Below, one piece after another: positions 5,337 through 6,630 of a stretch of DNA of 17,214 bases (position 1 is its first letter; the number at the start of each line of letters is the position of its first letter). The position numbers and the translations under genes are program-made. Source of the stretch: a virus. A model generated the notes under the pieces. It was not told the origin of the DNA. It saw nothing but the letters and a program-made list of their open reading frames with translations, and did not search any database. The DNA lies in UHGV virus genome UHGV-0135926, one strand, 5' to 3'.

Positions 5337-5466
5337 GGTTTTACCCTCGTTAAGGCGGCTGCCACCGCCGAACTTTCTCCATACTCAACTGGAAGCGCAC
5401 TCCGCTTGTTTCACACCTGTCACCCATAACTGGTAAGTGAAGGAGTGCGCTTTCATGTTGTGATCT

Positions 5467-5517
5467 GAAAAAGGCTGGCGGTTACCGGAAATACACGGGA
5501 AAACACCGGTCCGCCAG
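5467..5517 (-). terminator. Intrinsic terminator in the pL leader (tL-like)
   Basis: Minus-strand RNA: CUGGCGG-ACCGG-(17-nt loop)-CCGGU-AA-CCGCCAG followed by CCUUUUUC. That is 12 bp of stem with a 2-nt bulge. Plus-strand coordinates 5475-5517 for the stem and 5467-5474 for the U-tract. Confidence 0.6.
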
Positions 5518-5797
5518 AACATGGAGTTACTTGTTATTGCTTTAGCCTGCTTTTAACCACATCAGGCGCGGTGGTAGGTATCTTCGGGCGGGGGCCAGTG
5601 ACTAGCTGGCATCCCTACGGTACTTTTCACCGACAACCGCGGGTTAGACGGTTCCGTTTCGTCGGATAGAGCTGTCGACGCTGGTAGTCACTCCAGCCCG
5701 TAACCCCTCCCGAAGACACCTGTCAGCGAATCATCCGGTTATTCATACGTCACCGGCGGCTACTTCGTGGGCGTCCTGCCTGTTCGCTGTTTCGTAT

Positions 5798-5831
5798 AGG
5801 TACATTATGTACCTTGAGGGTACATTGTCAA
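5798..5831 (-). promoter_or_regulatory. pL promoter with overlapping OL operator(s)
   Basis: On the minus strand: TTGACA (plus 5826-5831), 16-nt spacer, CATAAT (plus 5804-5809). A perfect 19-bp palindrome ATGTACC-ttgag-GGTACAT (5807-5825) overlaps the spacer and -10, with an extra half-site forming AGGTACAT-t-ATGTACCT (5798-5814). Confidence 0.6.
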
Positions 5832-5833
5832 GG

Positions 5834-5859
5834 ATAAAAAAACCTGCCGAAGCAGGTTT
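5834..5859 (-). terminator. Terminator of the repressor transcript
   Basis: Stem aaacctgc (5840-5847) / gcaggttt (5852-5859), loop cgaa, followed on the minus strand by a run of seven U (plus-strand A 5836-5842). Sits between the cI stop (5871) and the pL -35. Confidence 0.65.
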
Positions 5860-5870
5860 GTGATGATGGG

Positions 5871-6545
5871 TTAAGGCTTATGCCTGTGCCGTCGTGGTTT
5901 TCCTGAGAAAACAACGGTGCCAATAATCGAGCAATTACCATTGATCCTAATATATGGCTCTGGCCAGTTGGCGTTTAAAGCTTTAAGAAACTTTTCGCCA
6001 CTATCTTCTATTAATCGTTTAAACGTCGTTTCGCCAGAATCATGCATTAAAGCAATAACATCATCGCCATGAGAAGCTGCAACCTCTGGATCTACAAAAA
6101 TCATATCGCCAGGACGATACTCATCGATCATTGAATCACCAATGACGCGTAAGATATAAGTCATTGGCCCGCACGGAACGGGACAAGGATATGTTTCTAC
6201 ACTACTCAAATCTACCTCTGCATAACCAGCATCCGTCCATGCTCCGGCTTGCACCCAGGATATAACCGGGACCATCGTAATTGATCTTTTAACGTCTGAA
6301 ACGTCGGGTGATTTAGCAATGTTGGTAGTTTGATGTTCGGTATCTAGCCAACCTTGAGGCAAGTCAAAACATTTTTCGATATGCCTTGCCATAGCGTCAC
6401 CAATACCTTTGGTGGCACCTTCACCCATAAACCGGCTGGTTTGTGTAGGTTCACGATCGATCATGTTAGCGAAGTAGCTATTACCCCCAACACCATCTCT
6501 CAATTTTCGGGCGTTTAATCGCCTGATTTCCTGGATAGTTTTCAT
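5871..6545 (-). CDS. cI: CI-type repressor with C-terminal LexA-like S24 peptidase domain (SOS-cleavable)
   Basis: C-terminal half resembles P22 C2 / lambda CI (ISWVQAG…, RVIGDSM with catalytic Ser, TFKRL with catalytic Lys, …INGNCSIIGTVV). N-terminal XRE-like HTH. ATG at 6543-6545 chosen over the track's TTG at 6560 because the putative pRM places the TSS on that ATG. Confidence 0.85.
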   Translation of the reverse strand: MKTIQEIRRLNARKLRDGVGGNSYFANMIDREPTQTSRFMGEGATKGIGDAMARHIEKCFDLPQGWLDTEHQTTNIAKSPDVSDVKRSITMVPVISWVQAGAWTDAGYAEVDLSSVETYPCPVPCGPMTYILRVIGDSMIDEYRPGDMIFVDPEVAASHGDDVIALMHDSGETTFKRLIEDSGEKFLKALNANWPEPYIRINGNCSIIGTVVFSGKPRRHRHKP

Positions 6546-6551
6546 CAGCAA

Positions 6552-6630
6552 ATTAAACAATGTGTACCTCTATGGTACAAGTACCTTGTGGGTTCATTTC
6601 TTTCGTGTAATATGTACACAGGAGGTACAT
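6552..6630. promoter_or_regulatory. OR region: three 19-bp operators, pRM (leftward) and pR (rightward)
   Basis: Operators GTGTACC-tctat-GGTACAA (6562-6580), AAGTACC-ttgtg-GGTTCAT (6579-6597), ATGTACA-cagga-GGTACAT (6612-6630). pRM on minus: TTGTAC (6575-6580), 17 nt, TTTAAT (6552-6557), 6 nt, then ATG. pR on plus: TTGTGG (6586-6591), 16 nt, TAATAT (6608-6613). Confidence 0.55.

What the first reader, a model, noticed from the sequence alone, without database searches (positions are those of the whole stretch)
5577..5720. Long-range 17-bp helix enclosing about 110 nt of nested inverted repeats in the pL leader
Arms ggtatcttcgggcgggg (5577-5593) and cccctcccgaagacacc (5704-5720) are complementary at 15 of 17 positions; in the leftward RNA one of the two mismatches is a G-U pair. 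Inside, agtgacta (5597-5604) pairs with tagtcact (5685-5692), and each of these is also part of a competing local hairpin (ccag…ctgg and gctgg…ccagc). Mutually exclusive pairings of this kind are typical of regulatory RNA switches. The segment is GC-rich and non-coding.
Basis: seen in the sequence. Interest (0 to 1): 0.55.

Follow-up and report, generated by a model that had tools for sequence, protein, structure and literature searches.

The report
New knotted RNA in prophage leader

Summary
Arms 5577-5593 and 5704-5720 pair at 15 of 17 positions, and the inner repeats exist.

Comparison with about 100 related prophages gives a consistent picture.
- The RNA is the minus strand, that is, the pL transcript.
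- A nearly invariant 17-bp helix (P1) closes a compact core.
- The core has two hairpins whose loops kiss.
- The core also has an H-type pseudoknot that carries a nested hairpin.
- Every core helix shows compensatory changes.
- A second type (160 nt) has the same P1 and the same topology but a different interior sequence.
- No Rfam family matches. There is no similarity to HK022 put.

The module sits between a very widespread 66-nt leader element at the pL start and a conserved intrinsic terminator 60-105 nt downstream. Phage Flotzy has the same backbone without the module, so it is optional cargo.

In ST64B the annotated sRNA STnc1310 maps from inside the 3' strand of P1 to that terminator. 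This suggests cleavage in P1.

Best guess (confidence about 0.35): P1 is a processing stem, probably cut by RNase III, that releases a folded immediate-early RNA particle. Cis effects on termination or on RNA stability remain live rivals.

It is a new RNA family of moderate to high interest.

The parts
5804..5831 (-). pL promoter: -35 TTGACA (5831-5826), 16-nt spacer, -10 CATAAT (5809-5804). The start site is inferred at about 5797. It overlaps the operator repeats GGTACAT (5798-5814 palindrome, 5819-5826).
   Evidence: 11 of 12 match to consensus. (repeats D3, I9).
5724..5789 (-). 66-nt leader element next to the transcription start. It has a closing stem CAGCGAA (5789-5783) / UUCGCUG (5730-5724), a hairpin, and an invariant GGACGCCCACGAAGUAGC. 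It is a separate and far more widespread module, lying upstream of the finding in the RNA.
5704..5720 (-). P1, 5' strand in the RNA (RNA positions 1-17, GGUGUCUUCGGGAGGGG).
   Evidence: The duplex energy is -30.6 kcal/mol. The sequence is nearly invariant in both types.
5680..5697 (-). P2 hairpin (RNA 24-41): stem 5697-5693 / 5684-5680, loop AGUGACUA 5692-5685.
   Evidence: helix 2 has 2 pairs with changes on both sides.
5661..5665 (-). P3, 5' strand (RNA 56-60, CCGAC). It pairs with 5630-5634.
   Evidence: Pair sets seen across subclasses: CCGAC/GUCGG, CCAC/GUGG, CCGC/GCGG, CUGGUG/CACCAG, CUUGGUG/CAUCAGG.
5654..5657 (-). P4, 5' strand (RNA 64-67, ACGG). It pairs with 5617-5620 and crosses P3, which makes an H-type pseudoknot.
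   Evidence: helix 4 is 99% paired, with 2 pairs changed on both sides (ACAG/CUGU, ACGUC/GACGU).
5636..5652 (-). P5 hairpin nested in the pseudoknot (RNA 69-85): stem 5652-5648 / 5640-5636, loop CUAACCC 5647-5641, with a conserved AACCC.
   Evidence: helix 5 has 3 pairs changed on both sides, and a U-G closing pair on the minus strand.
5630..5634 (-). P3, 3' strand (RNA 87-91, GUCGG). It is followed by the A-rich loop UGAAAAGU (5629-5622).
5617..5620 (-). P4, 3' strand (RNA 101-104, CCGU). It is followed by the invariant AGGG (5616-5613).
5594..5610 (-). P6 hairpin (RNA 111-127): stem 5610-5606 / 5598-5594, loop CUAGUCA 5605-5599. The loop bases 5604-5599 kiss the P2 loop bases 5690-5685.
   Evidence: helix 7 has 3 pairs changed on both sides, and kissing helix 3 is 96% paired with a compensatory change. 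L153.
5577..5593 (-). P1, 3' strand (RNA 128-144, CCCCGCCCGAAGAUACC). In ST64B the annotated sRNA STnc1310 begins at the equivalent of GAAGAUACC, about 5585 here.
5545..5567 (-). Spacer hairpin GCCUG...CAGGC between the element and the terminator. It belongs to the leader backbone and is also present in Flotzy and Nissle, which lack the element.
5468..5517 (-). Conserved intrinsic terminator-like hairpin CUGGCGG...CCGCCAG (5517-5475) followed by CC and UUUUU (5472-5468), 105 nt after the element.
   Evidence: 89 of 111 loci have it 60-105 nt downstream; compensatory CUGGCUG/CAGCCAG in Flotzy.

Best explanation
The segment is a self-contained, optional RNA module of a family that has not been catalogued. 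It has two structural types, and the window carries type I. It lies in the immediate-early, pre-terminator part of the pL transcript of ST64B/SfV-like lambdoid prophages.

Shown:
- The leftward RNA folds into a 17-18-bp clamp helix (P1) that closes a compact core.
- The core has two hairpins (P2, P6) joined by a 5-6-bp kissing-loop contact.
- The core also has an H-type pseudoknot (P3 crossing P4) that carries a nested hairpin (P5).
- It is one fixed fold, not a switch.
- The RNA is made when pL is derepressed.
- It follows a 66-nt conserved element at the 5' end of the transcript.
- It precedes a conserved intrinsic terminator by 60-105 nt.
- Related phages carry the same leader with nothing, or with a small protein gene, in its place.

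Inferred:
- P1 is a processing stem for a double-strand-specific endonuclease, most likely RNase III. Cleavage in P1 would release the folded core of about 125 nt as a discrete particle, much as ribosomal RNAs are cut out of their flanking stems. The same cut would create the 5' end of the short downstream RNA that ends at the terminator (STnc1310 in ST64B).
- The released core then acts as a structured RNA that binds a host or phage factor early in the lytic programme. I cannot name that factor.
For: Structure:
- Across 37 distinct type I sequences, 94% of cells are paired.
- 11 pairs have changes on both sides, and 97 cells carry a change on both sides.
- 0 of 500 shuffles reach the observed values, and shifted registers drop to 32-47% paired.
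- P3 takes five different pair sets across subclasses.
- Type II has the same topology with its own compensatory changes.
- New kissing-loop and P1 compensatory variants appear in metagenomes.

Strand:
- The promoter is on the minus strand.
- G-U pairs favour the minus strand 56 to 24.
- The P3 subclass with the pair set CUUGGUG/CAUCAGG has two G-U pairs only on the minus strand.

Context:
- The repressor gene lies upstream on the same strand in 104 of 113 loci.
- The 66-nt element lies upstream in about 88 of 113 loci, sometimes with a 62-93-aa ORF in between.
- The conserved terminator lies 60-105 nt downstream in 89 of 111 loci.

Optional cargo:
- Flotzy has the identical backbone with a clean absence of the module.
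- Nissle has a zinc-finger protein gene in the same slot.

Processing and termination:
- Owen et al. 2020 (PMC7067206) annotate ncRNA STnc1310 at D23580 2099207-2099280, downstream of the ST64B repressor. It is induced about tenfold by peroxide and nitric oxide, together with the next genes.
- By offset from the repressor gene this maps to L001 about 2510-2437. That runs from 8-9 nt inside the 3' strand of P1 to the U-tract of the terminator. No promoter-like sequence lies upstream of its 5' end.
- P1 is a stable duplex of -30.6 kcal/mol.
- P1 is nearly invariant in sequence in both types. This fits sequence-specific recognition rather than mere pairing.
Against: - No cleavage has been shown. 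The 5' boundary of STnc1310 comes from RNA-seq coverage, and it could reflect poor capture of the tightly folded upstream RNA.
- Only the 74-nt downstream fragment was annotated as an sRNA, not the core. This argues against a very abundant released core.
- P1 has 17-18 bp with an internal A-G mismatch, which is shorter than the usual two helical turns of strong RNase III substrates.
- No partner of the core is known.
- No protein gene co-occurs with the element in a way that names a partner. The downstream yfdP/yfdQ/yfdR-like genes are present in only about two thirds of loci.
- A simple hairpin would be enough for a processing site. The elaborate core is unexplained unless it has a function of its own, and that function is inferred rather than observed.
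Confidence: 0.35

Rival explanations
1. Cis-acting modifier of transcription. The folded RNA stays with, or sterically acts on, the RNA polymerase that made it. It would work like put, or as a structured block to Rho loading on a leader that is untranslated for about 460 nt. The effect would be to change read-through of the conserved terminator 60-105 nt downstream and so expression of the early-left genes.
For: - It is always placed just upstream of a conserved intrinsic terminator.
- No N-like gene is evident in the window.
- The fold is compact and rich in tertiary contacts, with an invariant helix. put RNA likewise has a compact fold that contacts RNA polymerase (PMC9378689).
- Three loci (L051, L076, L127) have the element and the terminator without the 66-nt element.
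Against: - Flotzy and Nissle carry the same terminator and the same 66-nt element without this RNA, so it is not needed for the basic circuit.
- The spacer to the terminator is long and comes in two unrelated versions of 61 and about 102 nt.
- There is no second copy in the pR operon.
- There is no similarity to HK022 put.
- Small ORFs can lie between it and the promoter.
Confidence: 0.2
2. Maturation or stability device for the downstream RNA. In this reading the functional product is the short terminated RNA (STnc1310-like) or the early-left mRNA. P1 masks its future 5' end (GAAGAUACC...) until a nuclease cuts the helix. The core is only a folding scaffold that makes sure P1 forms. Known precedents are the lambda N-leader and sib sites, where RNase III cleavage sets translation or decay.
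For: - The annotated STnc1310 starts inside the 3' strand of P1 and ends at the terminator, and it is the species that accumulates.
- The only part of that RNA shared by the two spacer versions and by both element types is the invariant half of P1. This could explain why P1 is conserved in sequence.
Against: - A scaffold role does not explain a conserved topology of six helices with a pseudoknot and kissing loops, kept in two sequence-unrelated types.
- The upper part of P1 (GGGG/CCCC and the A-G mismatch), which would not be in that product, is just as invariant.
- No target of such an sRNA is known.
Confidence: 0.15
3. Ligand- or temperature-sensing riboswitch that gates the downstream terminator. 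The first reader's version is included here: a switch between the long-range 8-bp pairing and the two local hairpins.
For: - A complex fold lies upstream of a terminator.
- One possible competition remains. The P5 loop (AACCC in type I, UACCC in type II) is complementary to GGGUU / GGGUA at the top of P1, so it competes with the top G-C pairs of P1. This was read by eye from the alignments, and no formal count was run.
Against:
- The junction and core sequences are not conserved between type I and type II, which is unlike ligand pockets.
- P1 at -30.6 kcal/mol is far too stable to be gated.
- No sequence overlaps with the terminator, and the spacer is 60-105 nt and variable.
- No Rfam riboswitch matches.
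Confidence: 0.06
4. A DNA-level feature: a miniature inverted-repeat mobile element, a cruciform, or a recombination joint whose conserved arms are terminal repeats.
For: - The ends are conserved while the interior varies.
- The element shows clean presence or absence relative to Flotzy.
- It has several different neighbours on the promoter side.
Against: - There is one copy per phage, always in the same leader and the same orientation.
- It is present in 1 of 5426 E. coli genomes, and the matches to this leader region run at a median of one place per genome.
- No target-site duplication is seen.
- The interior shows compensatory changes that preserve the hairpins, a pseudoknot and a loop-loop contact. 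G-U asymmetry favours one strand. These are signatures of selection on an RNA.
Confidence: 0.03

Closest known systems
HK022 putL/putR antiterminator RNAs
   Same: Both are structured RNAs in the early leader of a lambdoid phage that has no evident N gene. Both lie upstream of early terminators and have a compact fold with tertiary contacts.
   Different: put is about 70 nt with two stem-loops, lies right after the promoter, and occurs in two copies (PL and PR). This element is 144-163 nt with six helices, a pseudoknot and kissing loops. It is single-copy, separated from the start site by another element or by ORFs, optional in otherwise identical leaders, and has no detectable similarity to the HK022 early region.
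RNase III processing stems (lambda N-leader hairpin; the stems flanking 16S and 23S rRNA)
   Same: A long helix is formed by sequences flanking a folded RNA. In lambda it lies in the pL leader between the antitermination site and the first gene. An RNA 5' end maps inside the helix in ST64B.
   Different: Cleavage is not demonstrated here. The helix is shorter (17-18 bp with an A-G mismatch). What it encloses is a small knotted domain of unknown function, not a plain loop or an rRNA. The comparison with lambda rests on my own knowledge of the N leader.
STnc1310, an annotated ncRNA of Salmonella prophage ST64B
   Same: It lies in the same leader, directly adjacent, and overlaps the last 8-9 nt of P1. 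It shows that this leader is transcribed on induction and that transcripts end at the conserved terminator (PMC7067206).
   Different: STnc1310 as annotated is the 74-nt piece downstream of the fold. The 145-nt structured domain itself is not described there, and STnc1310 has no assigned function.
phi29 packaging RNA (pRNA)
   Same: A helix formed by the 5' and 3' ends closes a domain with two loops that are complementary to each other, and these loops covary among relatives.
   Different: pRNA loops pair between molecules to build a ring on the packaging motor of phi29-like phages. Here the host phages are lambdoid, there is no such motor, and whether the loop pairing is within or between molecules is unknown. 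This resemblance is recalled from memory and was not tested.

Membership tests
Any Rfam 15 family | Covariance-model match at or near the family's gathering score | tested here: not met
   No match in the window at gathering score. Nothing overlaps 5577-5720 at E up to 10. None for type II or the other subclasses.
HK022 put RNA | Sequence or structure similarity to putL/putR | tested here: not met
   The covariance model of the element finds nothing in the HK022 early region at E up to 10.
HK022 put RNA | About 70 nt with two stem-loops, immediately downstream of the promoter, one copy each after PL and PR | tested here: not met
   The element is 144-163 nt with six helices. It lies 76 nt or more from the start site, behind another element or ORFs. 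There is a single copy per locus, and the window covers the pR operon.
HK022 put RNA | Suppresses downstream terminators in cis by binding RNA polymerase | not testable with these tools
   This needs reporter or in vitro transcription assays. The same terminator occurs without the element in Flotzy.
Transcriptional riboswitch | Sequence-conserved ligand-binding core | tested here: not met
   Type I and type II share topology and P1, but not junction or core sequence.
Transcriptional riboswitch | Expression platform that overlaps or abuts the sensor | tested here: not met
   The spacer is 60-105 nt and comes in two unrelated versions. No convincing alternative pairing between P1 and the terminator was found by inspection.
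RNase III processing stem | Extended double-stranded helix formed by flanking sequences | tested here: inconclusive
   P1 has 17 bp (18 with the flanking A-U), energy -30.6 kcal/mol, and one invariant A-G mismatch. This is shorter than the usual two helical turns or so.
RNase III processing stem | RNA ends generated inside the helix in vivo, dependent on RNase III | tested here: inconclusive
   The 5' end of STnc1310 maps 8-9 nt inside the 3' strand of P1, by coordinate offset from published annotation. Dependence on RNase III is not known.
Miniature inverted-repeat element (ERIC-like) | Many dispersed copies per genome, with target-site duplication | tested here: not met
   One copy per phage. 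Present in 1 of 5426 E. coli genomes. No duplication at the Flotzy junction.
tRNA / tmRNA | Cloverleaf or tmRNA detected by ARAGORN | tested here: not met
   No gene found in the window.
phi29-type pRNA | End-to-end helix plus two mutually complementary, covarying loops | tested here: met
   P1 plus the P2 and P6 loops. At one loop position the pairs are C-G 17, U-A 17, U-G 3. L153 adds a second compensatory position.
phi29-type pRNA | Encoded by a phi29-like phage and assembled in trans on its packaging motor | tested here: not met
   The host element is a lambdoid prophage with a LexA-like repressor, a Q antiterminator and RusA. Assembly in trans is not testable here.

The most novel reading that the evidence does not exclude
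The fold is a phage-encoded immediate-early RNA effector. It would be the first thing made from pL after derepression, cut out of the leader at its processing stem, and it would act in trans on a host or phage factor, for example as a decoy for a defence or RNA-surveillance protein. It would occupy the same cargo slot that related phages fill with small proteins. Alternatively, it could be a second class of RNA-only antiterminator, structurally unrelated to put.
Probability: 0.3. Interest if true: 0.8.

Novelty: new variant of a known kind. Interest (0 to 1): 0.6.

Why it matters
How lambdoid phages without N (the ST64B, SfV and e14 group, present in a large share of enterobacterial genomes) organise their early-left transcription is poorly understood.

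This work defines a leader architecture: promoter, then a 66-nt conserved element, then a cargo slot, then a conserved terminator. One recurrent cargo is a 145-160-nt RNA with the structural complexity of a riboswitch or a small ribozyme. It has a pseudoknot, kissing loops and an invariant clamp helix, and it comes in two types with the same topology.

RNAs with this much conserved tertiary structure almost always have a specific biochemical job. This one has a tractable experimental system: the ST64B prophage of Salmonella Typhimurium, inducible by peroxide, with an already annotated adjacent sRNA. If the core proves to be a released effector or a new antiterminator, it would add an RNA to the short list of phage immediate-early functions.

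Tried and rejected
- Rfam scans of the window, of type II and of four other subclasses gave nothing relevant.
- Similarity to the HK022 put region was tested with BLAST for the 66-nt element and with covariance models for both elements. None was found.
- A second copy in the pR operon or elsewhere in the window or the loci was not found.
- ARAGORN found no tRNA or tmRNA.
- A coding reading was rejected. There is no ORF, the length classes are 144, 146, 147 and 149 nt, and the substitutions are compensatory rather than codon-like.
- A plus-strand RNA was considered because its MFE z-score is better (-3.2 against -2.3). It was rejected on promoter orientation and G-U asymmetry.
- An alternative pairing of CTACGG (5616-5621) with CCGTA (5698-5702) was rejected. 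It is not kept in the P3 subclass with the pair set CUUGGUG/CAUCAGG or in L113, whereas the P4 pairing is.
- The MAFFT and first covariance-model alignments misplace P3, so P3 was analysed per sequence instead.
- The small ORFs and the zinc-finger gene that share the slot, and the downstream genes, were scanned against PHROGs and Pfam. All are of unknown function.
- Full-text searches for sequence strings of either element found no relevant paper.
- Kroeger et al. 2012, the likely source of STnc1310, is not held.
- An Hfq interactome supplement does not list STnc1310. It shows only a different terminator-like RNA further down the ST64B leader.
- The 'tug-of-war' antitermination idea needs a spacer of 0-4 nt, which is not the case here.
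Full report
**1. The observation**

GGTATCTTCGGGCGGGG (5577-5593) and CCCCTCCCGAAGACACC (5704-5720) are complementary at 15 of 17 positions. The match extends to 25 nt at 80% (5569-5593 / 5704-5728). It also confirms the inner 8-mers AGTGACTA (5597-5604) and TAGTCACT (5685-5692) at 8 of 8.

No ORF of 40 aa or more overlaps 5523-5870. Taken alone, the 15-of-17 match is weak evidence. Five of 40 dinucleotide shuffles of the window contain one such match. The folding z-scores are modest, -2.3 for the leftward RNA and -3.2 for the other strand. The case rests on relatives.

**2. Where it sits**

The window is the early region of a lambdoid prophage.
- A LexA-like (Peptidase S24) repressor gene lies at 5871-6560 on the minus strand. 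It is followed by its terminator at 5859-5840.
- Next comes a near-consensus promoter on the minus strand, TTGACA-16-CATAAT at 5831-5804, embedded in GGTACAT operator repeats.
- To the right lie cro and cII-like genes, replication genes, methylases, RusA, an antirepressor, a Q-type antiterminator and lysis genes.
- To the left lie yfdP-, yfdQ- (DUF2303) and yfdR-like genes and others.

No N-like gene is evident.

**3. Relatives**

BLAST shows that 5576-5790 is shared as a block with Salmonella phage ST64B (81.5% identity) and with one E. coli genome out of 5426 (95.8%). Only the promoter-proximal part, about 5723-5794, is widespread: 1817 E. coli genomes, plus SfV, SfII, SfIV, e14, ZF40, and Yersinia, Aeromonas and even T5-like Providencia phages.

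Pattern scans gave the following.
- Public viral contigs: more than 110 loci carrying the element.
- Species-representative genomes: seven hits, in Phytobacter (two), Atlantibacter, Serratia, Citrobacter braakii, Kosakonia and Klebsiella spallanzanii.
- Metagenomes: 50 more.

After removing duplicates there are 37 type I sequences (144-162 nt, the window's type) and 28 type II sequences (160-163 nt). Type II has practically the same arms but an interior that does not align with type I.

**4. The fold**

Read as the leftward RNA, position 1 is window 5720 and position 144 is window 5577. The type I sequences support six helices.

| Helix | RNA positions | Notes |
|---|---|---|
| P1 | 1-17 with 128-144 | clamp helix |
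| P2 | 24-28 / 37-41 | hairpin, loop AGUGACUA |
| P3 | 56-60 / 87-91 | |
| P4 | 64-67 / 101-104 | crosses P3, giving an H-type pseudoknot with an A-rich third loop |
| P5 | 69-73 / 81-85 | hairpin nested in the pseudoknot, loop CUAACCC |
| P6 | 111-115 / 123-127 | hairpin, loop CUAGUCA |

A 5-6-bp contact joins the P2 and P6 loops: UGACUA (31-36) with UAGUCA (117-122).

The pairs were counted on the covariance-model alignment of the 37 sequences.
- 94.1% of cells are paired.
- 11 pairs show changes on both sides, in 97 cells.
- None of 500 shuffles reaches the observed paired fraction, covariation score or number of double-changed cells.
- Sliding the partners by 1-3 columns drops pairing to 32-47%.
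- By helix: P2 has 2 double-changed pairs, P4 has 2, P5 has 3 and P6 has 3. The kissing helix has one position split C-G 17, U-A 17, U-G 3.

P3 is misaligned by both MAFFT and the model, so it was extracted per sequence. It appears as CCGAC/GUCGG, CCAC/GUGG, CCGC/GCGG, CCCGAC/GUCGGG, CUGGUG/CACCAG and CUUGGUG/CAUCAGG.

Metagenomic variants add a second compensatory position in the kissing helix (UGAUUA with CAAUCA in L153). They also add a G-C to A-U change in P1.

Type II has its own versions of the same parts: P2 (GCGG/CCGC), kissing loops (UGAUUA with UAAUCA, and GAUAA with UUAUC in L047 and L078), a pseudoknot (AUUCCU/AGGAAU crossing GCUGGU/ACCAGC), a nested hairpin (GGC/GCC, loop AUACCCA) and an extended P6. 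It shows several compensatory changes of its own. The two types thus share one topology.

**5. The strand**

The promoter points leftward. In 104 of 113 loci the repressor gene lies upstream on the same strand.

Non-Watson-Crick cells in the helices are G-U on the minus strand 56 times. They would be G-U on the plus strand 24 times, and most of those are terminal pairs. The P3 subclass with the pair set CUUGGUG/CAUCAGG has two G-U pairs that would be A-C mismatches on the other strand.

P1 position 4 runs G-U 22, A-U 13, G-C 2. The functional molecule is the pL transcript.

**6. Not a switch of the kind proposed**

Six of those eight pairs are loop nucleotides, and only 5597-5598 are shared with a stem. 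The stems and the loop-loop helix each covary, so they coexist. This is a kissing-loop tertiary contact inside one fold.

One possible competition does remain and is unresolved.
- The P5 loop (AACCC in type I, UACCC in type II) is complementary to GGGUU / GGGUA at the top of P1.
- There is a compensatory difference between the two types, and there are wobble-compatible variants.
- A few variants break the pairing.
- The displaced CCCC could pair with the invariant AGGG.

I read this by eye from the alignments and record it as unexplained. No formal count was run.

**7. P1 is special**

Unlike the other helices, P1 hardly varies in sequence, in either type. An A-G mismatch at RNA positions 13/132 is invariant. 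The duplex is worth -30.6 kcal/mol. This points to recognition of the helix itself, or of one of its strands after cleavage, rather than to mere closure.

**8. Leader architecture**

Upstream in the RNA, starting about 8 nt after the inferred start site, lies a 66-nt element (5789-5724). It has a covarying closing stem and hairpin and an invariant GGACGCCCACGAAGUAGC.
- It precedes the finding in about 88 of 113 loci, directly or with a 62-93-aa ORF in between.
- It is single-copy and is absent from HK022.

Downstream, 89 of 111 loci have the same terminator-like hairpin, CUGGCGG...CCGCCAG followed by a U-run, 60-105 nt after P1. In the window it lies at 5517-5475 with Us at 5472-5468.

Phage Flotzy has the same 66-nt element, spacer hairpin and terminator, the last with a compensatory CUGGCUG/CAGCCAG. 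It lacks the 144-nt element cleanly. E. coli Nissle has a 121-aa zinc-finger protein gene in the same place.

So the finding is optional cargo in a slot between a promoter-proximal leader element and the first terminator. This is the position that the N gene holds in lambda (my knowledge of lambda).

**9. Experimental anchor**

Owen et al. 2020 (PMC7067206) report that in the ST64B prophage of S. [quoted passage not shown] Their table gives these values.

| Feature | D23580 coordinates | TPM, most conditions | TPM, peroxide / nitric oxide shock |
|---|---|---|---|
| Repressor | 2098186-2098881 | | |
| STnc1310 | 2099207-2099280 | about 200-500 | 2249 / 2373 |
| Next gene | | | 1085 / 1276 |

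Using the repressor gene as anchor (L001 3531-2836), STnc1310 maps to L001 about 2510-2437, give or take 1 nt. The sequence there runs from GAAGAUACC, 8-9 nt inside the 3' strand of P1, to the U-run of the terminator. Nothing promoter-like precedes that 5' end.

This shows that the leader is transcribed on induction and that many transcripts stop at the terminator. It also suggests, without proving, an endonucleolytic cut inside P1. The boundary could also be a coverage artefact of the tightly folded upstream RNA.

**10. What it most likely does**

I favour, at about 0.35, the following reading. P1 is a processing stem, with RNase III the obvious candidate. The knotted core is released as a discrete immediate-early RNA that binds some factor.

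The reasons are:
- its cargo-like, optional distribution;
- its gene-like self-containment;
- the invariant helix;
- the RNA end that maps in that helix;
- a conserved tertiary architecture that a mere processing hairpin would not need.

The main rivals are:
- a cis effect on elongation or termination at the nearby terminator (0.2);
- a role limited to maturing or stabilising the downstream RNA (0.15).

A riboswitch (0.06) and a DNA-level element (0.03) are unlikely, for the reasons listed under the rivals.

**11. Comparison with known systems**

No Rfam family matches any variant. It is not a put RNA by sequence, size, copy number or position. It could still work like one.

It resembles RNase III processing stems and, in outline, phi29 pRNA (end-to-end helix plus two covarying complementary loops). 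It fails the contextual criteria for pRNA. The adjacent STnc1310 is known only as an expressed ncRNA of unknown function.

I therefore class it as a new variant of a known kind, a structured leader RNA of a lambdoid early operon. It represents a new RNA family with two structural types.

**12. Verdict**

- The feature is real, conserved and structurally rich, and it is uncatalogued.
- Interest is 0.6.

Noticed in passing
window 5724-5789 (minus strand): A 66-nt leader element starts about 8 nt after the inferred pL start site. It has a covarying closing stem and hairpin and an invariant GGACGCCCACGAAGUAGC. It is present in 1817 of 5426 complete E. coli genomes and in SfV, e14, ZF40, and Aeromonas and T5-like Providencia phages. 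In the Providencia phage a boxA-like CGCUCUUUAA follows it. It is not in Rfam, occurs once per phage, and is absent from HK022. It is probably the core antitermination or stability element of these leaders.
   Followed up: partly
window 5468-5517 (minus strand): A conserved intrinsic terminator-like hairpin, CUGGCGG...CCGCCAG followed by CC and UUUUU, lies in the untranslated leader. It is found 60-105 nt after the element in 89 of 111 loci. Flotzy has a compensatory stem change (CUGGCUG/CAGCCAG). The simple terminator scan misses it because its loop is long.
   Followed up: partly
L001 about 2437-2510 (ST64B), equivalent to window about 5585 down to 5468: The published Salmonella ncRNA STnc1310 (74 nt, induced by peroxide and nitric oxide) maps from inside the 3' strand of P1 to the terminator U-run. 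The mapping uses the coordinate offset from the repressor gene, and the reads themselves were not examined.
   Followed up: partly
L183 (phage Flotzy) 1339-1412 and flanks; L131 (E. coli Nissle) 1690-2055: The slot between the 66-nt element and the terminator holds different things in different phages. It is empty in Flotzy. It holds a 121-aa ClpX-type zinc-finger protein gene in Nissle. In several viral contigs it holds ORFs of 62-93 aa of unknown function together with the RNA.
   Followed up: partly
window 5613-5616, 5641-5645 and 5701-5707: The P5 loop AACCC (type II: UACCC) is complementary to GGGUU (type II: GGGUA) at the top of P1, with a compensatory difference between the two types. 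This competes with the top G-C pairs of P1, whose CCCC partner could instead pair with the invariant AGGG. It may be an alternative conformation or a triple interaction. I read it by eye from the alignments, and no formal count was run.
   Followed up: no
E. coli genome search; genome-contig search: The 145-nt element is in only 1 of 5426 complete E. coli genomes, although the same leader backbone is in about a third of them. It is found in Salmonella (ST64B) and in single representatives of Citrobacter, Klebsiella, Phytobacter, Kosakonia, Atlantibacter and Serratia. This host bias is unexplained.
   Followed up: no
L001 4787-4975; L041 8021-8206: ST64B and one viral contig carry isrK and a C4 antisense RNA in the rightward operon, both at Rfam gathering score. 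The window has neither.
   Followed up: no
ST64B leader, SL1344 coordinates 2073533-2073618: A second terminator-like RNA lies further down the ST64B leader (GUCGGCGUC...GACGCCGAC followed by a U-run). It appears in an Hfq iRIL-seq chimera with another ST64B gene, in the supplement of PMC10703908.
   Followed up: no
window 5385-5522 (minus strand): The 45-aa ORF listed here overlaps the terminator hairpin and has no family match. It is probably not a gene.
   Followed up: partly
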